A stretch of DNA of 53,318 nt, taken from IMG/VR virus record IMGVR_UViG_3300033463_000040, positions 1-53,318 of that record. The stretch is one strand, 5' to 3'. A model generated the notes under the pieces. It was not told the origin of the DNA, did no database searches, and saw only the letters and a list, made by a program, of their open reading frames with translations. This document shows, piece after piece, positions 21,137-46,582 of this stretch (position 1 is the first letter of the stretch; every line of letters begins with the position of its first letter). The DNA comes from a virus (taxonomy: Duplodnaviria; Heunggongvirae; Uroviricota; Caudoviricetes). Made by a program: the position numbers and the translations under genes.

Positions 21137-21652
21137 ATGACAAGTATAATGAGTACATATTGGCTTCGTGATGATATTAGAGATATGAAAGCTTGTACTA
21201 GATACATCTTATTTAGATGCTGTAAAAAAGTAAGAGAAACATATAAATTAGGTGAAGATATTGTGGGTTGGGAAAGTTCTGTACGCACAACTTATTTACC
21301 TATAGATTTTATGGATTTCAAATGGATAGTAGATCGTTGTAACTTTGAATTAGCTAAGAATTTTGGTACTGATTTGTTACCTAATAGTTTTTTGAGTTGG
21401 TATCAAGATAGTCATTTTGTACCTGAAAATTTTGATGATGACTTCACTTGTGATTATAAACGCCAAAAAAATGGTAAATTTAAAAAAGTACAATCTAATA
21501 ATGTAGAATCAGATTTTATTTCTGCAGCAGAAACTTGGGCAATGGACAAAATTATTCGTAGATGGAAGTTATATGGTAGATTCTATATAAAGTTAGATAA
21601 TCTTAAATGGAAAGTTAAAAACAAATTTAAAAGGAGTAAAATAAAATGGTAA
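21137..21652 (+). CDS. Hypothetical protein
   Basis: 171 aa ORF with AAGGA RBS. Confidence 0.6.
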   Translation: MTSIMSTYWLRDDIRDMKACTRYILFRCCKKVRETYKLGEDIVGWESSVRTTYLPIDFMDFKWIVDRCNFELAKNFGTDLLPNSFLSWYQDSHFVPENFDDDFTCDYKRQKNGKFKKVQSNNVESDFISAAETWAMDKIIRRWKLYGRFYIKLDNLKWKVKNKFKRSKIKW

Positions 21653-22743
21653 GAACTATTGGAACAGCTTCATATGGTTTAAGAGCACCTATTATCAAAC
21701 AAGGTGATGATTTAATTCAGATTGTAGTTGATACGGTTTTGAATTCTGGTTTAGAAATTAAAGATAGAGATGTATTAGGTATTACAGAATCTATCGTTGC
21801 TAGATGTCAAGGTAATTATGTTACTATTGATGAAGTAGCAGAAGAAGTTAGAAAAATTAGTGATAATGCGGATGTTATTATTATAGATAGACCAATTTAT
21901 TCCCGTAATCGTTTTGCTATGATTTTAAAAGCAATTGCTAGAGGAACTGGTAAAAAAGTAGTTATTATTATGCCACCAGTTGATGAAGTTGGCAATGTAA
22001 TAAGAAATCATCCTTTTACTAAATTAAATTATGATGAATATTATAAATCAATTGTAGAAGGCGAAGGTAAAGAGTGTGAAATTATTGATGATATAAAAAA
22101 TAAAGAATTACTTTCTATTTATAAAGAGAATCCATTTGTAATAGATGCTAGAATGTATTTTACAACGAGTAATGAAGAAGAAATAAAAGAATTGAAAAAT
22201 AATATCGGTGGTTATTGTACGTTAGCATATATTTGTAGAAATAAATGTGAATATGGTTTATATGGCTCTAATAAAGCATCTGAAGAAATGTTAAAACTAT
22301 TTCCAAGTGGTGAATATTCAAGAAATTTAGTTAGAGAAGTTCAACAAAGAATTAAAGATGCAACTGGAAAACTGATTGAGGTTATGATTTATGGAGATGG
22401 CTGTTTCAAAGATCCTGTTGGTGGAATTTGGGAATTTGCTGATCCAGTAGTAAGTCCTGCCTCAACTATGGGATTACAAGGTACTCCAAATGAAATTAAA
22501 ATTAAAAACTTTGCTGATGAAAAGTATAAAGATTTACATGGTGAAGAATTAAATACGGCTATCAAAGAAGAAATTAAAAATAAAAGTTCTAACTTGAAAG
22601 GCAATATGATGAGTCAAGGTACGACACCGCGTAGATATACTGATTTATTAGGTTCGTTAATGGATCTTACTTCAGGATCGGGTGATAAAGGGACACCGTT
22701 TATATATGTCCAAGGCTATTTTGACAATATGTCCAATGATTAA
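21646..22743 (+). CDS. CofE-family (F420-0:gamma-glutamyl ligase-like) protein
   Basis: GLRAPIIKQGDDL, DRDVLGITESIVARCQGNY, MIYGDGCFKDP, DLLGSLMDLTSGSGDKGTPFIYVQGY. Confidence 0.8.
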   Translation: MVRTIGTASYGLRAPIIKQGDDLIQIVVDTVLNSGLEIKDRDVLGITESIVARCQGNYVTIDEVAEEVRKISDNADVIIIDRPIYSRNRFAMILKAIARGTGKKVVIIMPPVDEVGNVIRNHPFTKLNYDEYYKSIVEGEGKECEIIDDIKNKELLSIYKENPFVIDARMYFTTSNEEEIKELKNNIGGYCTLAYICRNKCEYGLYGSNKASEEMLKLFPSGEYSRNLVREVQQRIKDATGKLIEVMIYGDGCFKDPVGGIWEFADPVVSPASTMGLQGTPNEIKIKNFADEKYKDLHGEELNTAIKEEIKNKSSNLKGNMMSQGTTPRRYTDLLGSLMDLTSGSGDKGTPFIYVQGYFDNMSND

Positions 22744-22748
22744 AAATT

Positions 22749-22777
22749 TTCCCCAGTTAATTCTGGGGAATTTTTTT
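22749..22777 (+). terminator. Intrinsic terminator
   Basis: TTCCCCAG-TTAATT-CTGGGGAA followed by T7. Confidence 0.8.
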
Positions 22778-22845
22778 ATAAACAGAAAATTTTTCTAATT
22801 TTTATTTTACTAATGTTTAATTCTATAGTATGATAAGGAAAGAAA

Positions 22846-23055
22846 ATGAATACGGTAGTAGATCAGCTTAAAGGATATATAGCATTACCAATACAAGCAA
22901 CAAATAAAGCAGGATGGATAGTAAATTTTAATGATAATGGAAAATGGAGACCAATCGATTTTAATTTGCAAGAAGATGCTTGGAGTTATTTTTATAGTAA
23001 ATTAAATGAATTAAAAGCAAAGTTTTTAGGTCAACCATTGCAAACACAGAAATAA
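22846..23055 (+). CDS. Hypothetical protein
   Basis: 69 aa with AAGGA RBS, after ATTCTATAGTAT promoter-like motif at 22820. Confidence 0.55.
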   Translation: MNTVVDQLKGYIALPIQATNKAGWIVNFNDNGKWRPIDFNLQEDAWSYFYSKLNELKAKFLGQPLQTQK

Positions 23056-23056
23056 T

Positions 23057-23133
23057 GCTCCCTTAGCTCAATCGGATAGAGCATCAGATTTCTAATCTGC
23101 AGGTTGGGGATTCGAATTCCTCAGGGAGTGCCA
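23057..23133 (+). tRNA. tRNA-Arg (anticodon TCT)
   Basis: Acceptor GCTCCCT/AGGGAGT plus G-CCA; D arm GCTC/GAGC; anticodon loop TT-TCT-AA; T loop TTCGAAT. Confidence 0.92.
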
Positions 23134-23155
23134 ATTCTCTAAAAAGGAGTAATTA

Positions 23156-24481
23156 ATGATAGACAAAACATTAAATCAAATTGTTAATAAAGAAAAAGAT
23201 AAATTAAATAGTGAATTAGTACTTATTGCATCTGAGAATTATCCATCTCAAGATATATTAGATTTAATGGGTTCTGCTTGTTCTGTACCTTATACAGAAG
23301 GTTATCCTTTATCTGTATCTAAACAAGGTCGTCATTATGCTGGTTGTGAAGTTATTGATGAATTAGAAGAATATTGTATTGTTAAAGCATGTGAATTGTT
23401 TAGAGTTAAATTTGCTAATGTACAACCAATGTCTGGATCACATGCTAATACTTGTGTATATTATGCTTTTTGTAAACCAGGAGATCGTACCTTATCAGGT
23501 AATCTTAATGAATTAGCGCATTTAACTCATGGAAGTAAATTTACACATTCTGGTCGTTTTTATGAAAATCATAACTATGAATTAATTAATGAAAGAATTG
23601 ATTATGATGAAATAAAATCTAAATTATATGATGTATGCCCAAGATTGTTAATTATGGGCTATTCTGCATATTCAAAAAAGATTGATTTTCAAAAAGTACG
23701 TGAAATAGTTGATGAATATAATAAAGAATTATTATTAAACATTAAGCATTGTATGGGATTTCCACCAGAAGAAGAAGAAAAAGAGTATGAATCTAAAAAA
23801 TGTATTCTTTGGACTGACATGGCTCATTTTAGTGGATTTATTGCTGCTCATGTATGGGAAGATAAATATGATCCAACACAATGGTCAGATGTGGTAACTA
23901 CAACTACTCATAAAACTTTAAGAGGCCCGCGTTCTGCAATTATTTTATGGAATAATCCAGATTATTGTAAGAAAATTAATCAAGCCGTATTTCCAGCTAA
24001 TGCAGGTGGTACTAATCAAGCAGCAGTAGCAGCCAAAGCTCAAGCGTTTATTGAAGCATTACAGCCTGAATTTAAAGATTATATTAATCAAGTACATACT
24101 AATATAAAAGCATTAGTTAAAGGTATTGAAGAAGAAGATACTGAACATAAATTACGTTTTGTTAGTGGTGCTGATACTGAAAATCACATGATATTACTCG
24201 ATGTTAAAGGTGCAGGAATTACAGGTAAAGAAGCTGAAGATTTATTGACAGCAAACCATATTATTTGTAATAAAAATATGATTACCGGAGATACTAAACC
24301 TTCAGAATGTACAGGTATTAGATTAGGTACACCTGCTATTACAACTCGTGGTTTTACTGAAGAAATGAGTAATACCCTAGGTAAAGTAATTGCTAGTATT
24401 TTATTAAAACAAGGTGATCAGCAAGAAATTACATCTGTTATTGTATCATTATTAAATGAAGTCGGTGAATTTTATAAATAA
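23156..24481 (+). CDS. glyA: Serine hydroxymethyltransferase
   Basis: LIASEN, EGYP...HYAGCE, ANVQPMSGSHAN, HLTHG, DMAHFSG, TTTTHKTLRGPR (PLP Lys), GIRLGTPAITTRG. Confidence 0.95.
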   Translation: MIDKTLNQIVNKEKDKLNSELVLIASENYPSQDILDLMGSACSVPYTEGYPLSVSKQGRHYAGCEVIDELEEYCIVKACELFRVKFANVQPMSGSHANTCVYYAFCKPGDRTLSGNLNELAHLTHGSKFTHSGRFYENHNYELINERIDYDEIKSKLYDVCPRLLIMGYSAYSKKIDFQKVREIVDEYNKELLLNIKHCMGFPPEEEEKEYESKKCILWTDMAHFSGFIAAHVWEDKYDPTQWSDVVTTTTHKTLRGPRSAIILWNNPDYCKKINQAVFPANAGGTNQAAVAAKAQAFIEALQPEFKDYINQVHTNIKALVKGIEEEDTEHKLRFVSGADTENHMILLDVKGAGITGKEAEDLLTANHIICNKNMITGDTKPSECTGIRLGTPAITTRGFTEEMSNTLGKVIASILLKQGDQQEITSVIVSLLNEVGEFYK

Positions 24482-25263: not shown

Positions 25264-26499
25264 ATGGAAGATGAAGTATTATATCTAGATTATGCAGCAA
25301 CTGCACCTGTTTCTAATATTGTTAGTAGAAATTATTATGATGCTATAAATATTTTTGGTAATCCTGCTTCTTTTCATAAAGAAGGTGAAAAAGCATATCA
25401 AGCAATAGAAAAGAGTAAATTAAATATTTTACAATGTTTAAATCATAATGAAGATTGGAATATTTTATTTACTTCTGGTGCAACAGAATCGATTAATACC
25501 ATTTTTTATTCTTTTAATCCTGAACTAATTATTACAACAGATCTTGAACATCATGCAGTTAAAGCCGCTTCTAGTGCTTGTGTTGTTAGTAATGGTATTA
25601 CTCGTTGGATTCAAATTAATTTATTTGATATTATTACAAATACACCAACATATTTAGATGGTATACTTATTTCTTATACACGTATTTTAATATCTATTAT
25701 TGCAGTAAATAATGAAACAGGTCTAATTATTCCAGTAGATAAAGTACTATCAGCAAAAGAATACGTTCATTCTAAATTTCCAGATGCTGAAATTGTTGTA
25801 CATTTAGATTTTACTCAAGGCTTTTGTAAAATTCCTTATGATATGACAGATATTGATTGCTATTCATTTTCTGCTCATAAAATTGGATTTTTTAAAAGTT
25901 TCGGTGGATTAATTTATAAAAAAGGAATAGTAGAGAAGTATATTCAAAAAAATCCATTGATTAAAGGTGGTATGCAACAAAATGGATTAAGATCGGGTAC
26001 AGAAAATCCAACATTTGTATATTTATTAAATAAACTTATTGAAGATCATATGAATAACCTTAATAATAATTATACTAAAGCTCAAATTATTAAAACCGCT
26101 TTTTATCAAATTATTCCAGAAATAGTAAATAAATATAATAAAGCAGTAGAATTATTATTTACTTCTAAAAATACAGATGAATATTCGCCTTATATTATTA
26201 ATTTTTCAATTTTAGGTATTGAAGGTGAAAGTTTAGTTAGTGCTTTAGGTAATAAAATATGTATTTCAACTGGAAGTGCATGTAGCGAAGAAAACTTATC
26301 GGGAAGTGAAGTAATTAAGAATTATTATAAAAATTTAGGTGTACAAAGTGAAGATATTTTAGATACTTATGCAAATAGTGCAGTTCGTATTTCTTATGAT
26401 AGTTCTTTAACTATAAATCAAATTGTAGAAGATTTTCAGCCTACTTTTGATGAAGCGGTAAAAAATTTAGCAAAAGCAAGTACTTATAAAAAGGATTAA
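25264..26499 (+). CDS. iscS: Cysteine desulfurase (IscS/NifS family)
   Basis: YLDYAATAP, GNPAS, FTSGATES, VNNETG, HLDFTQ, SFSAHK, LRSGTEN, STGSAC. Confidence 0.9.
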   Translation: MEDEVLYLDYAATAPVSNIVSRNYYDAINIFGNPASFHKEGEKAYQAIEKSKLNILQCLNHNEDWNILFTSGATESINTIFYSFNPELIITTDLEHHAVKAASSACVVSNGITRWIQINLFDIITNTPTYLDGILISYTRILISIIAVNNETGLIIPVDKVLSAKEYVHSKFPDAEIVVHLDFTQGFCKIPYDMTDIDCYSFSAHKIGFFKSFGGLIYKKGIVEKYIQKNPLIKGGMQQNGLRSGTENPTFVYLLNKLIEDHMNNLNNNYTKAQIIKTAFYQIIPEIVNKYNKAVELLFTSKNTDEYSPYIINFSILGIEGESLVSALGNKICISTGSACSEENLSGSEVIKNYYKNLGVQSEDILDTYANSAVRISYDSSLTINQIVEDFQPTFDEAVKNLAKASTYKKD

Positions 26500-26501
26500 A
26501 A

Positions 26502-26990
26502 ATGGAAAGTTGTTCTGGAAATTGTAATACTTGTACAGTTGATCATTCTTTGGATCAAATAAGTAACAGAGGTCATGGTATTTCTTATTCATCTTTGGCT
26601 ATTCAATACGCACAAGATGGTAAGTATTTGAATAGAGATGATAATTTAAATTTAATATTACAAGAAGATAATGTATCAGTTTTTGAAGGAGCCTTTGGAG
26701 GACCTGCTTGTGGTGATATTGTAAATTTATGGGTAAAATTAGATACTAATCATAATACTATATTAGATGCTAAATTTTTATCTACGGGTTGTTATGGTTC
26801 ATTATCAAGTACTTCTTATGGCTGTGAACAAATAATTGGAAAAAATTTATTTGATATTAATACACAAGAATTAACTAAAAATATTATGGAAACCTTAGAC
26901 TTACCTAAAATAAAAGCACATTGTAGTGTGTTTATTGGGCAGTGTTTAGAAGAAATTCGTGAAAAAGTTAATAAAATAATTAAATTCTAA
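26502..26990 (+). CDS. iscU: Fe-S scaffold (IscU/NifU-N family) with Cys-rich N-terminal extension
   Basis: GPACGDIV, GC, KAHCS ligands; extra N-terminal CSGNCNTC. Confidence 0.85.
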   Translation: MESCSGNCNTCTVDHSLDQISNRGHGISYSSLAIQYAQDGKYLNRDDNLNLILQEDNVSVFEGAFGGPACGDIVNLWVKLDTNHNTILDAKFLSTGCYGSLSSTSYGCEQIIGKNLFDINTQELTKNIMETLDLPKIKAHCSVFIGQCLEEIREKVNKIIKF

Positions 26991-32832: not shown

Positions 32833-33342
32833 ATGATTTATACAAAAATTAAGGATGTTAAAGATCCAATTGGTAATCGCCAAGAAGATGCTGGTATTGA
32901 CTTTTTCGTTCCAAATGATTGGAATGAAGGTAAATCTTATATTTTGAGATTAGGTGAACAAGTTAATATTCCATCTGGTATTAAAACTAAATTAAAAAGC
33001 AATCAATATTTACAAATGATGAATAAATCTGGTGTAGCATTAAAGAAAGGTTTAGTATTTGGTGCTTGTGTAATTGATGCAGGTTATCGTGGTGAAATTC
33101 ATTTGAATATGTTTAAAGTAGTAAAAGGCACCGAAGATATTCGAGTTCGTCGTAAAGGATTTTTAGGTTGGTTAGGATTTAAAGAATGGGCAACTGTAAT
33201 TAATCCAGGTGATAAGATTATTCAAGGTATTATTATTAACATCTCAAATGAAGCTTTAAAAGGTGTACCTAATAAAGTATATGATCAGGGTCCAAAAACA
33301 AAAAGAGCAACAGGTGGTTTTGGAAGTACTGGTTCAAAATAA
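32833..33342 (+). CDS. dut: Trimeric dUTPase
   Basis: AGIDFF, KSGVA, VIDAGYRGEI, KIIQG, RATGGFGSTG (five motifs). Confidence 0.9.
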   Translation: MIYTKIKDVKDPIGNRQEDAGIDFFVPNDWNEGKSYILRLGEQVNIPSGIKTKLKSNQYLQMMNKSGVALKKGLVFGACVIDAGYRGEIHLNMFKVVKGTEDIRVRRKGFLGWLGFKEWATVINPGDKIIQGIIINISNEALKGVPNKVYDQGPKTKRATGGFGSTGSK

Positions 33343-33468: not shown

Positions 33469-33621
33469 ATGACAGATATAATTTCAAAAATTATTTTAGG
33501 TATTTGTTTTACTATTGTTGTATTTTTGCTTGGTGTTGATATTGGTACTAGATATATTGAAATTACACCAGAACAATGTTTATCAGTTTGTGTAGAACAA
33601 TTTGAAAAATTCGGTTGCTAA
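33469..33621 (+). CDS. Small membrane protein (50 aa)
   Basis: Not in the track. AAGGAG RBS; MTDIISKIILGICFTIVVFLLGVDIGTRYIEITPEQCLSVCVEQFEKFGC*. Confidence 0.65.
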   Translation: MTDIISKIILGICFTIVVFLLGVDIGTRYIEITPEQCLSVCVEQFEKFGC

Positions 33622-33638
33622 AAGAAAGGAGAATTACT

Positions 33639-34010
33639 ATGGCTAAGAAAGAATATAAAGAAATAATTACTGCAAAAGAACCAGGTGGTGGAATTAAATA
33701 TGATCAAGGTAAACTTAATTGGTCTTTATTACCATGGGAAGTTATTGAAACGGCAGTAAATAGATATACAGTTGGTGCAAAAAAATATGAACCTTGGTCA
33801 TGGACATTAGTAGATCATGGTAAAGAAAGATATGAGTCTGCTTTAATGCGACATTTTATGGAATATAAAAGAGGTAATCGTTGGGATGAAGATCCTAATT
33901 TTGAAGAACATCCATCTACTCATTTACAAGCAGCACTTTGGAATATGATATGTTTAGTATATTATGAATTACAAGATATTAAAAAAGAAAATGATGAAAA
34001 GAAGGATTAA
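33639..34010 (+). CDS. dATP/dGTP diphosphohydrolase-like protein (DUF5664 family)
   Basis: GIKYDQGKLNWSLLP, GAKKYEPWSW, RYESALMRH, HLQAALWN; start set at the ATG after AAGGAG. Confidence 0.75.
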   Translation: MAKKEYKEIITAKEPGGGIKYDQGKLNWSLLPWEVIETAVNRYTVGAKKYEPWSWTLVDHGKERYESALMRHFMEYKRGNRWDEDPNFEEHPSTHLQAALWNMICLVYYELQDIKKENDEKKD

Positions 34011-34013: not shown

Positions 34014-34388
34014 ATGAAAGTATTACACAAAGTAATTACAGAGAAAGCATATAAAAATGCTTTAGAGCGTAGTGAAATGAATCATAGAACAGAAACTCCT
34101 AGTTTTCTATTTTATGGTAAAGGTCGTTATGATAAAATTTTATATATAGAAAAAGGTAAAGTACGTTCAAGTAAATGTTCTTTTATATCTAATGAAGTAA
34201 TCCCTTTTGATTTGAATGATTTAGATGATTTACAGTATTTTAATAGTTCTTATCATACATTTATTAATAATATTACTAAAGGTCAAAATCATAGTGTATC
34301 AGTATGTGAAGTAGATAGTGATGGTAATTTAATAAGAGATTTGGAAGAGTATGAAGTTCTAGATATATGTAATCGTGCAAAAAAATAA
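34014..34388 (+). CDS. Hypothetical protein
   Basis: 124 aa ORF with AAGGA RBS inside the operon. Confidence 0.55.
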   Translation: MKVLHKVITEKAYKNALERSEMNHRTETPSFLFYGKGRYDKILYIEKGKVRSSKCSFISNEVIPFDLNDLDDLQYFNSSYHTFINNITKGQNHSVSVCEVDSDGNLIRDLEEYEVLDICNRAKK

Positions 34389-34399: not shown

Positions 34400-35275
34400 A
34401 TGAATGCTTACAACCAACAATATTTAAATTTGCTTAAAGAAATTTTAAAGGAAGGTTTTAATGCGCCTTGCCGTACAGGCAACGAAGTCCTTGTAAGATT
34501 AAATAAAAGTCTTACCTGGGATTTAAACGAAGGCTTTCCTATTCTTACTTTTAGACAAATTCCTTTTAAAGGCGTAAAAGGTGAATTATCTTGCTTTTTA
34601 GAAGGGATTACAGATAAGCAAATATATAAAGAGCGTGGTTGTAATTATTGGGATTATTGGTGTAATCCTAAAAAAGTTCCATATTTTAATAAAGAAGGAA
34701 TGAAAGAAGAGAGAGATTTAGGTAATATTTATGGTTGGAATTATCGTTATTTTGGTGCACAATATGAAAGCTATGATACAGGTTATAAAGGACAAGGTAT
34801 TGATCAGCTTTCTCAAATTGTAGATACTCTTAAAACAAATCCATATGATCGTCGTATGATTATGACAGCGTGGGATCCTGCTCATATGGATACAATGGGT
34901 TTACCACCATGCCTACATACATGGCAATTTAATTATCTTAATAATCAATTACATCTAACAGGAATTCAAAGAAGTGCAGATACTATTTTAGGTGTACCAT
35001 CAGATATGGTTCAAGGTGCTTTATTATTACATTTAATGGCACAAACAGTTGGTATGCAGGTTGGTACATTAACATTAGAGTTTTGTAATTGTCATATTTA
35101 TGATAATCATCTTCCTATTATTGCTGAGCATATGAATACTTGGGAAAAATGTGAAATTCCTTTGCCTAATTTAATCTTAGATCCAAATGCAACAGTATTT
35201 AATTTCTTACCAGATATGGCTAAATTAGAAAATTATCAATATGGAGAAAAAGTAAGTTTTGAAATAGCCGTTTAA
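34400..35275 (+). CDS. thyA: Thymidylate synthase (ThyA) family enzyme with dCMP-type specificity residues
   Basis: CRTG, EGFPILT, GEL, DLGNIYG, GIDQL, RRMIMTAW, LPPC, QRSAD, HIY, C-terminal EIAV; PCL replaces PCH and PSD replaces PFN. Confidence 0.88.
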   Translation: MNAYNQQYLNLLKEILKEGFNAPCRTGNEVLVRLNKSLTWDLNEGFPILTFRQIPFKGVKGELSCFLEGITDKQIYKERGCNYWDYWCNPKKVPYFNKEGMKEERDLGNIYGWNYRYFGAQYESYDTGYKGQGIDQLSQIVDTLKTNPYDRRMIMTAWDPAHMDTMGLPPCLHTWQFNYLNNQLHLTGIQRSADTILGVPSDMVQGALLLHLMAQTVGMQVGTLTLEFCNCHIYDNHLPIIAEHMNTWEKCEIPLPNLILDPNATVFNFLPDMAKLENYQYGEKVSFEIAV

Positions 35276-35308: not shown

Positions 35309-35473
35309 ATGCAAGTAGATCAAAATATTTGTATTGGTTGTGGTGCATGTCAAGCGATGTGTCCTGCAGGTGCAATTCGGTTTAAAAATGGTAAATCTGA
35401 AATAGATCAAAGTAAATGTTTAAATTGTGGTTCATGCGCAACAGTATGTCCAATGGGTTGTATTTCTAAGTAA
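35309..35473 (+). CDS. 2x[4Fe-4S] ferredoxin (54 aa)
   Basis: Not in the track. AAGGAG RBS; MQVDQNICIGCGACQAMCPAGAIRFKNGKSEIDQSKCLNCGSCATVCPMGCISK* with two CxxCxxCxxxCP motifs. Confidence 0.92.
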   Translation: MQVDQNICIGCGACQAMCPAGAIRFKNGKSEIDQSKCLNCGSCATVCPMGCISK

Positions 35474-37044: not shown

Positions 37045-37299
37045 ATGGCACATATTATAGAGATCAAAACACCAAATTGTCAAAGATGTAAGCAGTTTGA
37101 GCCAGAATATCAGCAAATACAAGCAGAATTTCCAAATAATACTTATGATGTGTTAATTTTTGGTCAAAATCCAGAAGCAATGGAATATGCTACTAAATAT
37201 GGTATTAAATCTGCACCCACTTTTGTAATCGAACAAGAAGGTAAAGATACTATAGTAGTTAAACAAGAAATTTTACGTGATACATTAAAATCCTTATAA
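37045..37299 (+). CDS. Thioredoxin/glutaredoxin-like protein
   Basis: TPNCQRCKQF CxxC motif; KYGIKSAPTFVI cis-Pro motif. Confidence 0.8.
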   Translation: MAHIIEIKTPNCQRCKQFEPEYQQIQAEFPNNTYDVLIFGQNPEAMEYATKYGIKSAPTFVIEQEGKDTIVVKQEILRDTLKSL

Positions 37300-37305
37300 T
37301 TTAAT

Positions 37306-37821
37306 ATGATAAGCTTTGAAACTACATTTTTAGATTATCCTAATCCAGACGATCTCGCTGTTGTAGTAATTATGTCTGGATGCTCACATAACTGTTTAGG
37401 ATGTCAAAATCCAAAATTACAAGAATTACATGAAGAATGGACATATGATCAAGAACAATCTATTATATTAGAAATTCAAAAGTTGTGTTTAAGAAATGAG
37501 ACTAATAAGATAGTTTTATCTGGTGGTGATCCATTAAATCCATGTAATAGAAATTTAACTATTCATATTTGTGAACTTTTAGGTAATAATACAGAATATA
37601 AATATGATATTTGTATTTATACAGGATATGATATAGAGGAAGTTAAGGAAATGGGTTTAAATGGATTTACTTTTATTAAGTGTGGTAAATTTGATGCTCA
37701 TTCTATGCGCGAATCTAAAAAAACAGATGAATATATCCAATTTGTAAATACAACACAAAACTTATTTGATAAAAACTATAATCAAATATCTAAAGATGGA
37801 AGATACTATTTTACTAAATAA
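37306..37821 (+). CDS. nrdG: Anaerobic ribonucleotide reductase activase (radical SAM)
   Basis: MSGCSHNCLGCQN, VLSGGDP, IYTGY, IKCGKF...QFVNTTQ. Confidence 0.88.
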   Translation: MISFETTFLDYPNPDDLAVVVIMSGCSHNCLGCQNPKLQELHEEWTYDQEQSIILEIQKLCLRNETNKIVLSGGDPLNPCNRNLTIHICELLGNNTEYKYDICIYTGYDIEEVKEMGLNGFTFIKCGKFDAHSMRESKKTDEYIQFVNTTQNLFDKNYNQISKDGRYYFTK

Positions 37822-37835
37822 CATGGAGTATAAAA

Positions 37836-39590
37836 ATGACCGAAGAAAAGAAAGCGATTAAAATTAAGTTTCCTGAATTCGATAATAATATGGAAAATCC
37901 ATATCAGGATGAGATGAATAAGCTTATTGATGCAAATTTGTCTGATGCTACAACTACTCGTACTTTAAAAAATATTACAGAAACATTAACGAAAGCGCTT
38001 CGGTCTAAGTATGATATTAAAGATAAAGAAGTTTTAAAAGATAAAGTAAATGAATTACTTAAATTACATGGTTTATCTGCTGAAAATTTTGATCCATTAG
38101 CTAATATCTCCAAACAAGTATTTGGTAATCTTCAGTCTGTAAATGATGTATCTATTGATGATAATGCAAATAAAACAGATTCAAATATGACAGGTGTTTG
38201 TGTAGAATCATTTCTACCATATCAAAAATTAGCAGGATATGATTATTTATATCAAACTATTAAAGATTTATATGGTAAAGAAGAGGCTAAAAAATGTACA
38301 GCAGATATGTATGATTTTAGTCTTTTTTTAAACGATTCTACTAAAATCCTTATTCCATATTGTTATTGTATCGATGCTTCTAAAATTGTAACAGAAGGTC
38401 GTAATTTTGGTCAAGTACATTCTTCACCTGCTCATCGTATTTCTACTTATATTTCAGTATTAGGAGATACAATTCGTGAAATTTCCTTTAATATTGCAGG
38501 TGCTGTAGCCATTGGTACTTTCTTTATGGATGTTTGTCATTTGGCAATTTACCGTGAACGTATTGCTTTAGATGACCTTAGAAATGACAAAAAAGTACGG
38601 AAATCTATGGCAAATCATTTCCAGCAATTTATTCATACAGTAAATCATTATTCTCGTAATGCTGTAGAATCACCTTTTACCAATGTATCGTTATTTGATA
38701 AAAACAAATTAGAAGGTTTAATCGAAGATGATAATTATGGTTGGTATTTTCCTAAAAAAGCAGCAGTATGCGAAGATAATAATATAGAAGATACAAAAGA
38801 AGCTTGGAAAGAATTTGTTTTAGATTATATTGAAGAATTACAAGAAATTTATATTGATGTCTTCGATGAAGGTGATCCATTACGTGGTGGTTTACAATTT
38901 CCATTTCCTGTAACTACCTGTAACTTTGGTACTACTAAAGATGAAAGCGGTAATAATAAGTTAACATATGAAGATAATAAATTGCTTGATTATTTGACCA
39001 AGAATGCAGATATTTCTCGTTATAATATTTATGCTTCAGAAGGTTCAAAAGTTGCTTCATGCTGTCGTTTATTAAGCGATTCTGACTTTTTAGCATATGC
39101 AGGTGGTGTTAATTCATTTGGTGGTTCACAGGTCTCTTTAGGCTCACATCGTGTAGTAACTATTAATTTTGCTAGATGTGCTTATGAAGCCGAATCTTAT
39201 GATGACTTTAAAAAGATTGTAGCAGAGCGTGTTGCTAGAATGGGTAAGATTTTAAAAGCACATAAAGTTTTAATCTTAAAATTAGAAGAATTAGGTAAGC
39301 AACCTTGGATTTCTAATGGATGGATTGATATGTCTCATATGTTTAGTACTTTTGGTTGTGTCGGATATGTAGAAGCTGATAAGATCTTAAAATTTAAATT
39401 TGATCATATCGATTTTGATTACATGAAAGATTTCTTAGTGTATTTCAATGATGAATGTCAAAGAATTGCTACTCAAGAAAACATTATTTTTAATATTGAA
39501 GCAATCCCAGCCGAAGGTGCTGCGCCAAAGATTGCTAAAGCAGATAAACTAATTTTTGCTGATGAAAATGGTGATTACTTATACGAATAG
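37836..39590 (+). CDS. nrdD: Class III ribonucleotide reductase, catalytic N-terminal part
   Basis: PYCYCID, QQFIHTVN, PFTNVSLFD, FPFPVTT, SCCRL finger loop, GSHRVVTINFAR, IEAIPAEG. Confidence 0.88.
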   Translation: MTEEKKAIKIKFPEFDNNMENPYQDEMNKLIDANLSDATTTRTLKNITETLTKALRSKYDIKDKEVLKDKVNELLKLHGLSAENFDPLANISKQVFGNLQSVNDVSIDDNANKTDSNMTGVCVESFLPYQKLAGYDYLYQTIKDLYGKEEAKKCTADMYDFSLFLNDSTKILIPYCYCIDASKIVTEGRNFGQVHSSPAHRISTYISVLGDTIREISFNIAGAVAIGTFFMDVCHLAIYRERIALDDLRNDKKVRKSMANHFQQFIHTVNHYSRNAVESPFTNVSLFDKNKLEGLIEDDNYGWYFPKKAAVCEDNNIEDTKEAWKEFVLDYIEELQEIYIDVFDEGDPLRGGLQFPFPVTTCNFGTTKDESGNNKLTYEDNKLLDYLTKNADISRYNIYASEGSKVASCCRLLSDSDFLAYAGGVNSFGGSQVSLGSHRVVTINFARCAYEAESYDDFKKIVAERVARMGKILKAHKVLILKLEELGKQPWISNGWIDMSHMFSTFGCVGYVEADKILKFKFDHIDFDYMKDFLVYFNDECQRIATQENIIFNIEAIPAEGAAPKIAKADKLIFADENGDYLYE

Positions 39591-39599
39591 GAGTAAAAA

Positions 39600-40031
39600 A
39601 TGCGTAAAAGAAAAATGGAAGATATATATGCTAATCAATGGTGCAGTTTATGGGAAGATTTTACAATCTCTGAAAAAATGAAACGAGATGGTGAAATTAA
39701 TTCACTTATGACAGGTGGATCTATTGTTCACTATTCAGTAGATAGTAAATTAACTTCACAACAAGCTAAAAATATGATTATGAAAGCAATTGATGCAGGT
39801 GCAGAACATTTTGCTTTGAATTGTGTTTATACAGAATGTCGTGAATGCCATAAAGTAGAAAAAGGTAACTTTGAAATATGTCCACACTGTGCTAGTAAAA
39901 AATTAAATCATTTTTCTCGTGTAATTGGATATTTTTCAATTGTAGAAAACTGGAATCCTACTCGTAGAAAAGAAGATTTTCCAAATCGTAAGTTTATTAA
40001 AGCAGAACAACTTAAGGAACAGTTAATCTAA
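39600..40031 (+). CDS. nrdD: Class III ribonucleotide reductase, separate C-terminal glycyl-radical/Zn-ribbon part
   Basis: TGGSIVH, CRECH...CPHC, FSRVIGYF...NWNPTRRKED...R; own AGGAG RBS. Confidence 0.88.
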   Translation: MRKRKMEDIYANQWCSLWEDFTISEKMKRDGEINSLMTGGSIVHYSVDSKLTSQQAKNMIMKAIDAGAEHFALNCVYTECRECHKVEKGNFEICPHCASKKLNHFSRVIGYFSIVENWNPTRRKEDFPNRKFIKAEQLKEQLI

Positions 40032-40039: not shown

Positions 40040-40069
40040 AAAAAAGAGGTTGAAATATACCTCTTTTTT
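40040..40069 (+). terminator. Intrinsic terminator
   Basis: AAAAAAGAGGT-N8-ACCTCTTTTTT. Confidence 0.7.
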
Positions 40070-40085
40070 AATAAAAAGGTATACA

Positions 40086-40673
40086 ATGGCAAATCTTCAT
40101 TTCTTTTATGGAACAATGGCAGCAGGTAAAAGTTCTCATTTAATACAAGAAAGATATAACTTTGAACAAAAAAATGCCGATGTTTGGGTAATTAAACCTA
40201 AAGCTGATAGCAGGACAGAAGAACCAAAAATTACTTCTAGAATTGGATTAGAATGCCCAGCAACTATTATGAAAGAGATTAAATGGGAAGACATTATCCA
40301 AATGCGAGAATTTTATTCTAAAATATATATGGTAGATGAAGTTCAATTTTTTAAGCCAAAAGATATAGATAGTTTAGTCAAACTTGCAGATACATATGAT
40401 AGATTAATTTTTTGTTATGGTTTATTAACAGATGTAAACGAAAAGTTATTTCCTGCTTCTAAACATTTAATTGAAGTAGGGGCTAAATTACACGAATTAA
40501 GGACTACTTGTCAAATGATAGGTTGTATGAATACTGCAAATCATCATTTACGATATCATCCTTCTGGTTATTTAATTAGAGAAAGTAAAACTATAGATAT
40601 TGATGATGGACATGTTGTTTATAAATCTGTATGTCGTCAGTGCTATGACAGAGAAATGAGAAAAAAGAGATAA
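40086..40673 (+). CDS. tdk: Thymidine kinase
   Basis: FYGTMAAGKSSHL, IKPKADSR, ITSRIG, VDEVQF, YGLLTD, C-terminal CRQC; start set at ATG 40086. Confidence 0.9.
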   Translation: MANLHFFYGTMAAGKSSHLIQERYNFEQKNADVWVIKPKADSRTEEPKITSRIGLECPATIMKEIKWEDIIQMREFYSKIYMVDEVQFFKPKDIDSLVKLADTYDRLIFCYGLLTDVNEKLFPASKHLIEVGAKLHELRTTCQMIGCMNTANHHLRYHPSGYLIRESKTIDIDDGHVVYKSVCRQCYDREMRKKR

Positions 40674-42428: not shown

Positions 42429-43217
42429 TTAAAAATATTTTTCTTTTTTATGTATTTTAATATTTTGTAACTCATATTTACAAGGTTGAGATAAAGTATT
42501 ATTTAATAAAGTATTTAGATCTTTAAACTTGCTATTATTTACAATATTATCTGCTACAGATAACCAACCACATATTTTAAGTAAATCTAAAGAATCATCT
42601 CTTTTTTCTGTAACTTTAACATCAAATGATAATATAAAAGGTTTTTTTGGTTTATCGTAATTTTTATATAAAGTTCGTTTATGTAATACTTTTGAAGTTT
42701 TCATAAATTCTTGAACAAGTGGTAAATTAATTACTTCTAAAAATTTTTGTTTATTAATTTTTATAGGTAAATGTGCTTCATATGAATATAAAGGTTTTCT
42801 AATGCCTAATTCATTTAATAAATTCTTTATATGAGCAAATCCATCTGCCCAACCACCAACATGTGATTTATACCTAATAATAATATCATCTAATTTTCCT
42901 AGATTAGAATCAATTACTTTTTCTAACGGTAAAATTGGACTAATTGCAAAAAAATCATCATTCATTAAGATAAAATTATCTGAAATATTTGGGCATTCAC
43001 AAGCTTTGATTACATTTAAAGTAGAATTAGCCCATTTTGTTCCTTTTTGTTCAACCGGAAGATATTCCACATTTGTAACCCAAGCTGGCTTATATCCAAT
43101 AATCCATACTTTATTATTAGGATAATATTTAGCAATCGATCTAAGAGAATATCTTAAATCTATACCTTTTTCGCCAGGTTTAATTATATATACAAAATCC
43201 ATATTATTTGTATTCAT
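42429..43217 (-). CDS. Stealth-family-like sugar-phosphate transferase
   Basis: MDFVY (CR1-like), DLRYSLRSI (CR2-like), FILMNDDFF. Confidence 0.65.
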   Translation of the reverse strand: MNTNNMDFVYIIKPGEKGIDLRYSLRSIAKYYPNNKVWIIGYKPAWVTNVEYLPVEQKGTKWANSTLNVIKACECPNISDNFILMNDDFFAISPILPLEKVIDSNLGKLDDIIIRYKSHVGGWADGFAHIKNLLNELGIRKPLYSYEAHLPIKINKQKFLEVINLPLVQEFMKTSKVLHKRTLYKNYDKPKKPFILSFDVKVTEKRDDSLDLLKICGWLSVADNIVNNSKFKDLNTLLNNTLSQPCKYELQNIKIHKKEKYF

Positions 43218-43957
43218 TAAAAATACCTATCTCTTTTTTTCTTTAATTTAGAAAGATGCATTTCTGTATATAATTTTCTATGCACTGCTAAAATTGTAGC
43301 ATTAATTTGTAATCTTTCTTCTGTTTTGATAGTATTACATAAATTAGTTTCATGCGCTCTATAATAATATAATGGTTCAAGAATACTTTTTATTGGCATC
43401 CTTTCTAATATTTGTAAATGAAAATCAAAATCTTCACACATTTTATAATTTTCATTAATAGCTATTTCTGACAACAAAGAAGTCCTAAACATCATTCCAC
43501 CGGCATATCCGTAACCATTAATCTTTCCAAATAATACAGATTTTAAATTCCACTGCACTGGTCTATGTATATACTGTTGTCTTTTACCAAATCTTTTTAA
43601 TTCACAACATACCGCCCCATAATTAGGATTATTTTCTAAAAAAGTTACTTCTTTTTCTATCAAAGTTGGATCTATTATATCGTCACTATCTATTCTAACT
43701 ACATATTTACCCGTTGCTAAATTAAATACTTTTTGTGCAGTTTTATTCATTCCTAAATTAGTTTTGTTTCTTACTAATTTAATCTTTGGAGATAATTTTT
43801 TTATATAATTATATTTTATGTTAGGAGAACAATCATCGATAAAAATAATTTCCAAATTTTGATATGTTTGATTTAGTATGCTTTCAATACATTCATTAAC
43901 ATATTCTTTTTTTATATCATATAATAAAGAAACTATTGAAACTAATGGTTGTTCCAT
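43217..43957 (-). CDS. Glycosyltransferase family 2
   Basis: LVSIV, ECIESILNQTYQNLEIIFIDDCS, RIDSDD (DxD), EDFDF. Confidence 0.9.
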   Translation of the reverse strand: MEQPLVSIVSLLYDIKKEYVNECIESILNQTYQNLEIIFIDDCSPNIKYNYIKKLSPKIKLVRNKTNLGMNKTAQKVFNLATGKYVVRIDSDDIIDPTLIEKEVTFLENNPNYGAVCCELKRFGKRQQYIHRPVQWNLKSVLFGKINGYGYAGGMMFRTSLLSEIAINENYKMCEDFDFHLQILERMPIKSILEPLYYYRAHETNLCNTIKTEERLQINATILAVHRKLYTEMHLSKLKKKRDRYF

Positions 43958-45361: not shown

Positions 45362-45392
45362 ATTATATACAAAATTAAAGGTAAAGTAAAGC
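45362..45392 (-). promoter_or_regulatory. Sigma70-type promoter
   Basis: GCTTTACT-N17-TATAAT on the minus strand. Confidence 0.7.
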
Positions 45393-45399
45393 AATAAAA

Positions 45400-45432
45400 T
45401 TTATACCCCAAATATAGAGTTTGGGGTATAAA
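45400..45432 (-). terminator. Intrinsic terminator
   Basis: TTTATACCCCAAA / TTTGGGGTATAAA 13-bp stem downstream of the Hsp20 gene. Confidence 0.75.
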
Positions 45433-45468
45433 CTATGCTCCTTTTTAGCCTCCTTTTAAGCTCTATAA

Positions 45469-45981
45469 TTACTCCACAGTAATCGATTTTGGTTTGGGCT
45501 TATTAGGTTGAGGTATTTTAACAATTACGCGTAATAAGCCATCTTTAAGCTTTGCAGATTCAAATTCTGTATCTTCTGTTACACTATGAGACCAAGTAAA
45601 CTGTGTTTTAGATGAGATATTATGTTCATATTCTTTACCATAATGTTCACTTTTTGTATTAGGTTCTTCTTCTTTATCACCCATAAAAGTACCTTCAATT
45701 TTCATAATACCTTTATCAATAGTAATATCTAATTTACTATTATCATGATTCCATCCTGGTAAAGCCAATTCAAATAACAAACGTTCTTCATCTTTTGTAG
45801 ATACGTTTTTAACATTAGCACGAGGAAATCCGGTACGATCTATTAATGTATTTCTTAATGTTGGAATATCATTATCCCAATTAATAAAGGGATTAAAATT
45901 AAAAAAACCGTCAAAATCACGCAATAATTCTGAAATAGCGTTTGCTGGACGGGATAATGTTAGTGTATTTTTTTCTGTCAT
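45469..45981 (-). CDS. Small heat shock protein (Hsp20 family)
   Basis: FPRANV, FELALPGW, LDITIDKGIMKIEG, SAKLKDGLLRVIV alpha-crystallin pattern. Confidence 0.85.
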   Translation of the reverse strand: MTEKNTLTLSRPANAISELLRDFDGFFNFNPFINWDNDIPTLRNTLIDRTGFPRANVKNVSTKDEERLLFELALPGWNHDNSKLDITIDKGIMKIEGTFMGDKEEEPNTKSEHYGKEYEHNISSKTQFTWSHSVTEDTEFESAKLKDGLLRVIVKIPQPNKPKPKSITVE

Positions 45982-46041
45982 ATCATACTCCTATTTTTAT
46001 AGTAAGTTATTAAAACGTAAACCAGGTTATTCTGTATTTAC

Positions 46042-46077
46042 TTTTATTAGAACTATAAATTTTCAGTTCTATATAAT
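46042..46077. promoter_or_regulatory. Back-to-back pair of GTTCTA promoters
   Basis: Minus GTTCTAATAAAA (46053-46042) and plus GTTCTATATAAT (46066-46077). Confidence 0.6.
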
Positions 46078-46108
46078 ATATAGAAATTATTTTAAAAATT
46101 TAAACCCC

Positions 46109-46582
46109 ATGTATAGCAGAACTTCATTTAAAACAAGAGCTAAAATTAAATCTATACTAAACAGGAAAAAAGCTATTCCTAGACAGCAATTAATTAAAGT
46201 AGGCAATACAAATATTAAACATGGAATATCTCAATCTGAAATAAATTGGCTTAATTTATTAGGTGTACCCGAAAGATCTAAGTTAATAAGAGGTTTTCAT
46301 GGAAAGATTTATATAGTTGATGGTTATGATCCTAAAACTAATACATGTTTTGAATATTTAGGTTGTAGTTGGCATGGTTCTCATCGTACTTATTCTAGAA
46401 ATAGAGATGCAATTATACCTTTCCTTAAAAAATCACCAAATCAATTATACAATGAAACGATAGAAAGATTTAATTTTCTTCAAAGTATTGGCTGTAAAAT
46501 TTTCTTTGTTTGGGAAGATGACGATAAAAAAAGAAGATCAAATGGGCGTTTTTATAGAGGTCCTGGTGATAATCTATATTAA
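46109..46582 (+). CDS. Vsr/DUF559-like PD-(D/E)XK endonuclease
   Basis: SQSEINWL, IVDGYD, CFEYLGCSWHG, IFFVWEDD. Confidence 0.6.
   Translation: MYSRTSFKTRAKIKSILNRKKAIPRQQLIKVGNTNIKHGISQSEINWLNLLGVPERSKLIRGFHGKIYIVDGYDPKTNTCFEYLGCSWHGSHRTYSRNRDAIIPFLKKSPNQLYNETIERFNFLQSIGCKIFFVWEDDDKKRRSNGRFYRGPGDNLY

What the first reader, a model, noticed from the sequence alone, without database searches (positions are those of the whole stretch)
21646..46582. Putative complete cytosine-modification pathway spread across the window
Inference linking seen genes. The ThyA-like dCMP (hydroxy)methylase would make the base. GlyA and the CofE-like ligase would supply methylene-THF. Tdk would supply dTMP by salvage if the ThyA homologue no longer makes it. 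dUTPase and the DUF5664 protein would clear competing dNTPs. PolB has an altered base-pair pocket. GT2 and Stealth enzymes could decorate hmC, and a Vsr-like nuclease could repair T:G from mC deamination. No DHFR is visible in the window: a hydroxymethylase regenerates THF and needs only SHMT, whereas a methylase needs DHFR. No dNMP kinase is visible either.
Basis: inference. Interest (0 to 1): 0.8.

Follow-up and report, generated by a model that had tools for sequence, protein, structure and literature searches.

The report
Phage 5-methylcytosine nucleotide pathway, not hydroxymethyl
A ~230-kb cattle-gut phage carries a thymidylate-synthase look-alike retargeted to cytosine, plus folate and nucleotide helper genes, so it most likely builds 5-methylcytosine (not sugar-decorated hydroxymethylcytosine) into its DNA, a strategy already known from phage Xp12.

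Summary
The ThyA homologue (34400-35275) has Asp at E. coli Asn177, as do all 120 closest homologues.

It keeps each feature that published work ties to reductive methylation: Leu143, Trp83, Asp169 and the C-terminal tail. It lacks each hydroxymethylase or 5-hydroxylase signature. The predicted product is therefore 5-methyl-dCMP.

The "no DHFR" argument fails. The window lies in a record that is only 49% complete. A DHFR and a dCMP-deaminase-family gene sit on what is almost certainly the other half of this genome, and also in a 98%-complete relative whose only TS-family gene is the Asp variant.

The set matches the Xp12/Pamexvirus 5-methylcytosine cassette: NTP pyrophosphatase, TS(Asp177), deaminase, DHFR. 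This phage adds SHMT, a CofE-like ligase, Tdk, dUTPase and anaerobic RNR.

- **dNMP kinase:** none found here, although relatives have a T4-type kinase beside the gene.
- **GT2 and Stealth-like genes:** they change position between relatives, and neither a hydroxylated base nor a TET enzyme is predicted, so a DNA-sugar role is unsupported.
- **Vsr-like fold:** moderately supported.

This scan has reached the same reading in at least 12 other genomes. The finding is a new member of a known kind.

The parts
21646..22743 (+). CofE-like gamma-glutamyl ligase homologue (365 aa), a candidate folate polyglutamate ligase
   Evidence: Pfam PF01996 at 154 bits, with an insertion of about 130 aa. It falls far below the NCBIfam CofE equivalog cut-offs. 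It lies just upstream of SHMT in G001 too, at 60% identity. Precedent: the Chlamydia CofE homologue CT611 complements folC (PMC1971073). The function is inferred.
23156..24481 (+). Serine hydroxymethyltransferase (GlyA), which regenerates 5,10-methylene-THF
   Evidence: Pfam PF00464 at 353 bits. Present in all 4 records of this phage family and in none of 19 other TS-carrying viral records.
32833..33342 (+). Trimeric dUTPase
   Evidence: PF00692 at 36 bits, PHROG 135 E 7e-25, TIGR00576 E 4.5e-18. Motifs AGYRGE and GGFGSTG are present. A terminator-like hairpin at 33359-33392 follows it.
33615..34010 (+). DUF5664 / PF18909 NTP pyrophosphohydrolase-like protein, the proposed dCTPase supplying dCMP
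   Evidence: PF18909 E 4.5e-21; PHROG 801 'dATP/dGTP pyrophosphohydrolase' E 1.6e-22. It ends 4 nt before the next ORF, in the same transcription unit as the TS homologue. It holds the same position in L003, L052 and L053. Xp12 has a PRA-PH pyrophosphatase at the equivalent place. Substrate untested.
34014..34388 (+). Orphan 124-aa ORF between the pyrophosphatase and the TS homologue
   Evidence: No Pfam, PHROG or atlas relative and no P-loop. Conserved in L053; replaced by an unrelated 218-aa ORF in L052. Role unknown.
34400..35275 (+). TS-family dCMP C5-methyltransferase (predicted 5-methyl-dCMP synthase)
   Evidence: PF00303 at 238 bits. In E. coli numbering: N177 is Asp202, H147 is Leu172, F176 is Ser201. 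Retained: L143, D169, W80, W83, Y94, C146, R166, and the C-terminal ...FEIAV. All 114 of the 120 closest homologues that matched the motif pattern have Asp at this position; the other 6 did not match the pattern.
35309..35473 (+). 2x[4Fe-4S] ferredoxin (54 aa) directly downstream of the TS homologue
   Evidence: ORF seen. Pfam Fer4 is on record for the identical gene. Conserved in L052 and L053. It more likely serves NrdG/NrdD than the methylase (inference).
37045..40031 (+). Thioredoxin, NrdG activase and split anaerobic ribonucleotide reductase NrdD (584 + 143 aa)
   Evidence: Pfam. NrdD is unsplit in G001 (716 aa) and L050 (725 aa).
40050..40673 (+). Thymidine kinase (TK1 type), for thymidine salvage
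   Evidence: PF00265 at 119 bits. Present in this phage and L052; absent from G001-G003.
42429..43957 (-). GT2 glycosyltransferase (43217-43957) translationally coupled to a Stealth-like protein (42429-43217). Probably not part of the nucleotide pathway.
   Evidence: GT2 at 93 bits. Stealth_CR2 at 30 bits, below cut-off; PHROG 7999 E 8e-50, function unknown. Position differs between relatives: beside dUTPase/TS in L052 and L053, and just upstream of the tail sheath gene in G001.
46109..46582 (+). Vsr/DUF559-fold nuclease-like protein (157 aa)
   Evidence: hhalign against E. coli Vsr: 87.6% probability, E 3.5e-6. YIVDGY aligns with FVVDEY (Asp51), GCSWHGSH with GCFWHHHH, and FFVWE with LIVWE. 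Atlas neighbours are DUF559/NUMOD3/Vsr phage nucleases. The fold model was unusable, pLDDT 42. Syntenic in G001 and L052.

Best explanation
The stretch is the nucleotide-supply module of an anaerobic, AT-rich (28% GC) jumbo phage from the bovine gut. Its centre is a thymidylate-synthase-family enzyme retargeted from dUMP to dCMP.

Proposed steps (all inferred unless marked):
1. The DUF5664 pyrophosphatase converts dCTP to dCMP.
2. The Asp177 enzyme methylates dCMP reductively, using 5,10-methylene-THF, to give 5-methyl-dCMP and dihydrofolate. The residue pattern is shown; the chemistry is inferred from it.
3. A DHFR encoded in the other half of the genome, together with SHMT, recycles the folate. 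The CofE-like ligase may add the glutamate tail.
4. 5-methyl-dCMP is phosphorylated and built into phage DNA in place of C. The kinase is unidentified in this phage; relatives have a T4-type dNMP kinase beside the gene.
5. Thymidine nucleotides come from deamination of 5-methyl-dC nucleotides, by the dCMP-deaminase-family enzyme next to DHFR, and from Tdk salvage. No uracil-specific TS is seen.

NrdDG, thioredoxin, ferredoxin and NifS/NifU feed the module, and dUTPase keeps uracil out. GT2/Stealth-like and the PolB peculiarities are probably unrelated. The Vsr-fold nuclease could deal with T:G mismatches from 5mC deamination, but that is speculative.
For: The specificity switch is present and conserved in the clade. 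Published work shows that Asn177Asp redirects TS to dCMP, and that positions 177 and 147 are the two most modification-associated positions in viromes (PMC8670742). This protein also has Leu in place of His147.

All methylase-type features are retained and all hydroxymethylase or hydroxylase signatures are absent (PMC6400193; PMC13326640).

The 98%-complete relative G001 has this Asp variant as its only TS-family gene, no ThyX, and a DHFR and a dCMP deaminase. A DHFR implies a DHF-producing reaction.

The own-genome DHFR (P0136) shares its longest contig length, 231,566 bp, and two samples with the window's own TS protein. In one assembly the two contigs are 136,184 and 95,497 bp, which together come to about 231.7 kb. 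A deaminase lies two genes upstream of that DHFR.

Xp12 and AXL1, phages with 5mC genomes, have the same four functions in one cassette. In such phages the deaminase makes dTTP from 5mdCTP, and 5 of 7 metavirome Asp177 TS homologues tested made 5mdCMP (bioRxiv 10.1101/2024.12.05.627091).

A T4-type dNMP kinase lies 1.3-4 kb upstream of the TS homologue in G001, G002 and L050.
Against: - There is no chemistry or DNA-composition data. Everything rests on residue rules and gene content.
- No dNMP kinase was found in the 117-kb record, near the DHFR, or among the top 120 kinase homologues.
- The DHFR link to this genome is inferred from matching contig length and samples, not read from DNA.
- DHFR and deaminase also accompany Asn-type TS genes in unrelated phages, so their presence alone does not discriminate.
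- The Leu143 rule is a correlation: Xp12 itself has Asn there.
- C-containing palindromes such as GGATCC and GGTACC are under-represented, which full 5mC substitution would not obviously predict.
- GT2/Stealth-like genes sit directly beside the module in the two closest relatives.
Confidence: 0.6

Rival explanations
1. Cytosine-first thymidylate route only. The Asp177 enzyme makes 5-methyl-dCMP, the deaminase converts essentially all of it to thymidine nucleotides, and the packaged DNA is canonical. For a genome that is 72% A+T, the pathway would simply turn the host's dC pool into dT.
For: - The deaminase-family gene sits beside DHFR in this genome and its relatives.
- No dNMP kinase able to push 5mdCMP towards DNA was found in this phage.
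- No other TS or ThyX is present in the complete relative, so dT must come from somewhere.
- C-containing restriction palindromes are still avoided.
- Earlier notes of this scan propose this route for CPR bacteria (unchecked leads).
Against: - In viromes, Asp177 TS genes are enriched on contigs with modified cytosine (PMC8670742).
- The characterised deaminase of this kind acts on the triphosphate, which means a 5mdCTP pool exists and is available to the polymerase.
- An adjacent NTP pyrophosphatase and, in relatives, a T4-type dNMP kinase fit replacement of dCTP.
- This phage also has Tdk for dT supply.
Confidence: 0.2
2. The enzyme is a dCMP hydroxymethylase that regenerates THF, and the GT2 and Stealth-like enzymes decorate 5hmC in DNA with sugar or sugar-phosphate.
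For: - Asp177 is shared with T4 gp42.
- GT-A-fold enzymes do glycosylate phage DNA and are often found near ThyS genes (bioRxiv 10.1101/2023.12.21.572611).
- In the closest relatives, GT2-GT2-x-Stealth-like lies directly between PolB/S21 and dUTPase-DUF5664-TS on the same strand.
- GT2/Stealth-like genes are present in every sufficiently covered genome of the family.
Against: - All four hydroxymethylase signatures fail: Asp/Glu at position 143, Ser/Thr before the catalytic Tyr, Val at position 83, and no C-terminal tail. In T4, even D145N abolishes 5hm-dCMP formation (PMC6400193).
- DHFR co-occurs with this enzyme as the sole TS-family gene.
- In G001 the GT cluster lies just upstream of the tail sheath gene, about 130 kb from the TS homologue.
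- No TET/JBP gene was found.
- Stealth_CR2 is below threshold.
Confidence: 0.09
3. It is still an ordinary thymidylate synthase working on dUMP, and the Asp is tolerated.
For: It has high overall similarity to canonical TS (32% identity to E. coli, up to about 39% to other TS). All folate-side and catalytic residues are intact. It is the only TS-family gene in the complete relative.
Against: Asn177Asp switches preference to dCMP in two TS enzymes (cited in PMC8670742). The Asp and the loss of His147 are fixed across more than 100 homologues at 60-80% identity, which indicates selection rather than drift.
Confidence: 0.05

Closest known systems
Xanthomonas phage Xp12 / Pamexvirus (AXL1, PaMx74) 5-methylcytosine cassette: PRA-PH pyrophosphatase, TS homologue (dCMP methyltransferase), dCMP-deaminase-family enzyme, DHFR
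   Same: The same four functions are present. Both TS homologues have Asp at position 177, a non-His residue at 147 and a non-acidic residue at 143. In both, the pyrophosphatase lies immediately upstream of the TS homologue. Neither has a second TS.
   Different: - The TS here is a separate lineage, much closer to canonical TS. It keeps Leu143 and the ...IAV tail, where Xp12 has Asn143 and a different C-terminus.
- The pyrophosphatase belongs to PF18909, not PRA-PH.
- Deaminase and DHFR are in another part of the genome.
- This phage adds SHMT, a CofE-like ligase, Tdk and an anaerobic RNR with Fe-S support.
- It is a jumbo myovirus of an anaerobic gut host, not a 64-kb siphovirus.
Metavirome Asp177 TS homologues linked to 5mC-selective deaminases (MetaGPA; PMC8670742; bioRxiv 10.1101/2024.12.05.627091)
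   Same: The residue signature at positions 147 and 177 is the same. Both associate with a dCMP-deaminase-family gene and an NTP pyrophosphatase. The predicted product is 5mdCMP.
   Different: In those contigs the deaminase usually lies within 3 kb of the TS. Here it is far away, next to DHFR. This protein has not been tested.
T4 gp42 dCMP hydroxymethylase with gp56 dCTPase, gp1 dNMP kinase and alpha/beta-glucosyltransferases
   Same: The logic is the same: destroy dCTP, modify dCMP with a TS-family enzyme carrying Asp at the specificity position, then phosphorylate with a dNMP kinase. Relatives G001, G002 and L050 carry a PF21448 kinase.
   Different: gp42 has Asp145, Val85 and Ser94 and lacks the C-terminal tail. 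This enzyme has none of those features. The T4 glucosyltransferases have the GT-B fold; the enzyme here is GT2.
Chlamydia CT611 (FolC2), a CofE-family protein acting as folylpolyglutamate synthase
   Same: Both are CofE-family proteins in a setting without F420 biosynthesis, placed next to folate genes (here SHMT).
   Different: No sequence-level comparison with CT611 was made. The phage protein has a large insertion and is untested.

Membership tests
Thymidylate synthase / dCMP hydroxymethylase superfamily (PF00303) | Full-length match to the family profile, with catalytic Cys146, Arg166, Tyr94 and Glu58 | tested here: met
   238 bits over profile positions 1-266. Cys171, Arg191, Tyr111 and the conserved Glu are aligned.
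Canonical dUMP-specific thymidylate synthase (ThyA) | Asn at E. coli position 177 (and His147) | tested here: not met
   Asp202 and Leu172. Scores fall below all but one NCBIfam ThyA equivalog cut-off.
T4-type dCMP hydroxymethylase | [quoted passage not shown] | tested here: not met
   Leu168, invariant in 25 clade members. The rule comes from PMC6400193 and PMC13326640.
T4-type dCMP hydroxymethylase | No C-terminal tail; Val in place of Trp83; Ser/Thr next to the catalytic Tyr | tested here: not met
   The tail ...VSFEIAV is present, Trp87 is retained, and Asn109-Ile110 precede Tyr111.
5-hydroxy-dCMP synthase (RB69 gp48 / DLP3 gp80) | Asn at E. coli Asp169 | tested here: not met
   Asp194, invariant in the clade. 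The rule comes from PMC13326640. That enzyme needs O2, and this phage uses an anaerobic RNR.
Xp12-type dCMP C5-methyltransferase pathway | Asp177 with a non-acidic residue at position 143 | tested here: met
   Asp202 and Leu168. Xp12 has Asp and Asn at these positions.
Xp12-type dCMP C5-methyltransferase pathway | DHFR and a dCMP-deaminase-family gene in the same genome, and no second TS | tested here: inconclusive
   Met in the 98%-complete relative G001. For this phage it is inferred from identical longest-contig length and shared samples. The DNA of that half could not be read.
Xp12-type dCMP C5-methyltransferase pathway | NTP pyrophosphatase next to the TS homologue | tested here: met
   The PF18909 protein ends 390 nt upstream, in the same unit. 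It is a different family from Xp12's PRA-PH.
Xp12-type dCMP C5-methyltransferase pathway | Product is 5-methyl-dCMP, and 5mC replaces C in virion DNA | not testable with these tools
   The only runs holding the sequence are kept as assembled contigs of bovine gut metagenomes.
Phage DNA glycosyl-hypermodification system | A hydroxylated base precursor (5hmC, 5hmU or 5hoC), from a hydroxymethylase/hydroxylase or from a TET/5mYOX enzyme | tested here: not met
   The TS signatures predict a methyl group (above). No Tet_JBP match in G000-G003.
Phage DNA glycosyl-hypermodification system | Glycosyltransferase clustered with the base-modifying enzyme | tested here: inconclusive
   Adjacent in L052 and L053, 7 kb away on the other strand in the window, and about 130 kb away just upstream of the tail sheath gene in G001.
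Vsr very-short-patch repair endonuclease | Vsr catalytic core (Asp51, the His cluster in FWH, the WE strand) | tested here: inconclusive
   hhalign 87.6%, E 3.5e-6 over 68 columns. No Pfam Vsr match. The model had pLDDT 42. T:G specificity was not tested.
CofE (F420-0:gamma-glutamyl ligase) | Score above the curated equivalog cut-off | tested here: not met
   Pfam domain match at 154 bits, but TIGR01916 scores 33 bits against a cut-off of 181. It is a family member, not an orthodox CofE.
Stealth hexose-1-phosphate transferases | Conserved regions CR1-CR4 above threshold | tested here: inconclusive
   Only CR2 matches, at 30 bits against a cut-off of 39.4. The G001 homologue adds a faint CR4 match.

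The most novel reading that the evidence does not exclude
Two readings remain open.

1. Despite its methylase-like residues, this TS lineage supplies a base that the co-inherited GT2 plus Stealth-like (sugar-1-phosphate transferase-like) pair decorates on DNA. That would be an oxygen-independent cytosine hypermodification in phages of strict anaerobes.

2. More modestly, this phage family encodes a complete private folate one-carbon cycle: TS-like enzyme, DHFR, SHMT and a CofE-type folate polyglutamate ligase. I found no report of such a ligase in a phage.

I would put the CofE-folate reading at about 0.35, with lower interest (about 0.45).
Probability: 0.08. Interest if true: 0.8.

Novelty: new member of a known kind. 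Interest (0 to 1): 0.35.

Why it matters
If the prediction holds, an abundant family of cattle-rumen jumbo phages (more than 100 homologue clusters, contigs of 200-260 kb) replaces cytosine with 5-methylcytosine. Three consequences follow.
- It would change how these phages interact with host restriction systems and with methyl-dependent nucleases.
- It would bias bisulfite or enzymatic methylome readings and some library preparations from rumen viromes.
- It would extend the Xp12-type pathway to anaerobic Firmicutes-type hosts, with a TS lineage only a few substitutions away from ordinary ThyA. That lineage is useful material for studying what sets dUMP/dCMP and methyl/hydroxymethyl specificity.

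The accompanying SHMT, DHFR and CofE-like set would be an unusually complete phage-borne folate cycle.

The strategy itself is already described, and this scan has met it repeatedly. The value here is incremental.

Tried and rejected
- **Single-protein search of viral contigs for the TS.** It found nothing. The alignment-based scan worked.
- **Reading the other half of the genome.** The look-up of encoding contigs gave gene lists but no DNA, because the sample files were too large. The metagenome scan returned only relatives at 43-68% identity.
- **dNMP kinase in this phage.** None was found:
  - the Pfam search of the genome found nothing;
  - a clade-specific HMM found nothing;
  - a Walker-A scan found only terminase, RecA, Tdk, AAA and Pnkp proteins plus two motif-only matches, in PolB and a 372-aa ORF;
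  - no kinase homologue with contig length 231,566 was among the 120 listed of 247.
  
  This is absence of evidence only.
- **The ORFs between DUF5664 and the TS as hidden kinases.** Rejected: no P-loop, and they are not conserved.
- **Z-genome reading of the PF18909 'dATP/dGTP' hydrolase.** Rejected: no PurZ or adenylosuccinate synthetase in G000-G003.
- **Palindrome avoidance as a proxy for modification.** Inconclusive. AT-only and C/G-containing palindromes are similarly mildly depleted, and a few C-containing hexamers (GGATCC 2 observed against 13 expected, GGTACC 4 against 19) are low. Counts are small and were not corrected for multiple testing.
- **Fold of the Vsr-like protein.** pLDDT 42, unusable.
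- **Fold of the conserved 343-354-aa protein upstream of DHFR.** pLDDT 67, and no PDB match at E below 1. The weak sigma-factor rows are not evidence.
- **DHFR/deaminase co-occurrence with Asp versus Asn TS types across 23 viral records.** It does not discriminate.
- **Sequencing runs.** Only assembled contigs of bovine gut metagenomes are held, so there is no read-level signal of modification.
- **Promoter scan.** Not above the level of shuffled sequence.

Full report
**What the window is.** It is 28% GC, with structural genes on the minus strand up to about 20 kb and a long plus-strand block of replication and nucleotide-metabolism genes after that. It is the first 53 kb of a 117-kb IMG/VR record that CheckV rates 49% complete. 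The identical TS protein is on record on a 231,566-bp contig. The sequence is held in bovine gut metagenome runs.

**Gene content.**
- The same scans add ClpP, NifS, NifU, RecA, an AAA ATPase and Hsp20.
- Small ORFs add ribosomal protein S21, GapR, a ferredoxin and a thioredoxin.
- 'Stealth' is a sub-threshold CR2 match.
- The 'Vsr-like' ORF has no Pfam match, but its profile aligns with the catalytic core of E. coli Vsr at 87.6% probability.
- The 1227-aa polymerase has a canonical motif A, but motif B is KLILNGAIG and motif C is NTDG.

**The TS homologue.**
- Alignment with solved TS structures and with E. coli ThyA, Xp12 TS and T4 gp42 puts Asp202 at Asn177, Leu172 at His147 and Ser201 at Phe176.
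- Cys146, Arg166, Asp169, Tyr94, Trp80, Trp83, Leu143 and the C-terminal tail (...FEIAV) are all retained.
- Of the 120 nearest homologues (60-100% identity), 114 matched the active-site motif pattern and all of those have Asp at this position.

**What the published rules say.**
- Asn177Asp switches TS to dCMP. Positions 177 and 147 are the two most modification-associated positions in virome TS genes (PMC8670742).
- Hydroxymethylases have Asp/Glu three residues before the catalytic Cys, a Ser/Thr near the catalytic Tyr, Val for Trp83, and no C-terminal tail. In T4, D145N abolishes 5hm-dCMP formation (PMC6400193; PMC13326640).
- 5-hydroxy-dCMP synthases have Asn at Asp169 and use flavin and O2.
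- The window's enzyme fails all hydroxymethylase and hydroxylase signatures and keeps all hydride-transfer features. I therefore read it as a reductive dCMP methylase that makes 5-methyl-dCMP and dihydrofolate.

**DHFR and the deaminase.** The window and the 117-kb record do lack DHFR, but three results undercut the argument.
- The syntenic relative G001 (237 kb, 98% complete, TS 62% identical) has a DHFR, a dCMP-deaminase-family gene, only this one TS-family gene and no ThyX.
- A search with the G001 DHFR found a 200-aa DHFR (P0136) whose longest contig is also 231,566 bp. It occurs in the same two samples as the window's own TS protein. In one assembly the two contigs measure 136,184 and 95,497 bp, together about the genome length.
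- Two genes upstream of that DHFR lies a 191-aa dCMP_cyt_deam_1/MafB19 protein. The block deaminase, a roughly 350-aa protein, then DHFR is conserved in relatives. DHFR and TS also share contig lengths 233,645 and 82,826.

A DHFR kept together with an Asp177 enzyme as the only TS-family gene fits DHF-producing chemistry.

**Comparison with known 5mC phages.**
- Xp12 (MT664984) carries HhH-GPD, a PRA-PH pyrophosphatase, TS(Asp177), a dCMP deaminase and DHFR in a row. AXL1 has the same cassette (PMC9206674).
- In such phages the deaminase converts 5mdCTP to dTTP, which removes the need for a uracil-specific TS. Five of seven metavirome Asp177 TS homologues tested produced 5mdCMP.
- This phage has the same four functions. 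Its pyrophosphatase, of a different family (PF18909), lies immediately upstream in the same unit. A terminator-like hairpin follows dUTPase, and none lies before the ferredoxin.

- SHMT is present in all four records of this phage family and in none of 19 other TS-carrying viral records. CofE-like is in 2 of 4 and 0 of 19.
- CofE-like lies just upstream of SHMT in G001 as well.
- These four records are kin, so this shows co-inheritance, not independent association.
- A T4-type dNMP kinase (PF21448) lies 1.3-4 kb upstream of the TS homologue in G001, G002 and L050. It is absent from this record and from the TS neighbourhoods of the closest relatives L052 and L053.
- L052 and L053 instead share dUTPase, DUF5664, a variable ORF, TS and ferredoxin; L052, whose locus reaches far enough downstream, also has Tdk.
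- The kinase step is therefore unresolved for this phage.

**GT2 and Stealth-like.** The two genes are translationally coupled in the window. They lie beside dUTPase/DUF5664/TS in L052 and L053, but just upstream of the tail sheath gene in G001. GT-A enzymes can glycosylate phage DNA, but they need a hydroxylated base. None is predicted here, and no TET/JBP gene was found. Cell-wall polymer or virion-protein glycosylation are at least as likely. I keep a DNA role as a low-probability rival.

**Verdict.**
- It is wrong on the chemistry (methyl, not hydroxymethyl) and on the DHFR argument.
- It is unsupported on the sugar decoration and the polymerase link.
- The pathway is not shown to be complete.
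- The main rival is that 5-methyl-dC nucleotides serve only as a route to thymidine.
- This scan has reached the same 'dCMP methylase, Xp12-like' reading on at least a dozen other genomes. I used those notes as leads only.

Noticed in passing
window 32550-32756 (+): A phage-encoded ribosomal protein S21 (68 aa) sits between PolB and dUTPase. It is conserved in L052 and L053.
   Followed up: partly
window 28826-32509 (+): The family-B polymerase matches no Pfam family or PDB sequence. Motif A is canonical, motif B is KLILNGAIG (the pocket Tyr is replaced by Ile) and motif C is NTDG.
   Followed up: partly
window 40724-41386 (+); L001 9334-9981 (G001): There are small methyltransferase-like ORFs here. 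The window's 220-aa protein matches PHROG 799 'DNA methyltransferase' (E 1e-15). An unrelated 215-aa Eco57I/Dam-like ORF lies directly upstream of the TS homologue in G001. A second DNA modification, on adenine, is possible.
   Followed up: no
L060 3162-4226; L061; L062; L063; L064; G001 66285-67316 (-): A conserved, Lys-rich, all-helical protein of 343-363 aa always lies immediately upstream of DHFR, with overlapping stop and start. It has no Pfam family and no significant fold match. The only PDB rows, to sigma factors, are insignificant.
   Followed up: partly
L009, L010, L016, L022, L023; L017-L021: Other viral TS homologues, 37-39% identical, carry Ser at the Asn177 position. A further group reads Asn-Asp at positions 176-177 and keeps His147. 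Their specificities are unknown.
   Followed up: no
window 33615-34388 versus G001 175899-176534, G002, L050: Within this phage family the slot between dUTPase and the TS homologue holds one of two things: DUF5664 plus an orphan ORF (window, L003, L052, L053), with Tdk further downstream where the locus reaches it (window, L052), or a T4-type dNMP kinase, with neither DUF5664 nor Tdk. This looks like two alternative solutions.
   Followed up: partly
window 37836-40031: NrdD is split into 584- and 143-aa ORFs in this phage and in L052, but is a single ORF of 716-725 aa in G001 and L050.
   Followed up: no
window 25264-26990 and 35309-35473: NifS-like cysteine desulfurase, a NifU-like scaffold and a 2x[4Fe-4S] ferredoxin are phage-encoded. 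They may support the radical-SAM activase NrdG. NifS and NifU were not found in G001.
   Followed up: no
G000 and G001, whole records: The hexamer palindromes GGATCC, GGTACC, CCATGG, GATATC and GAATTC occur at 0.15-0.6 of the Markov expectation.
   Followed up: partly
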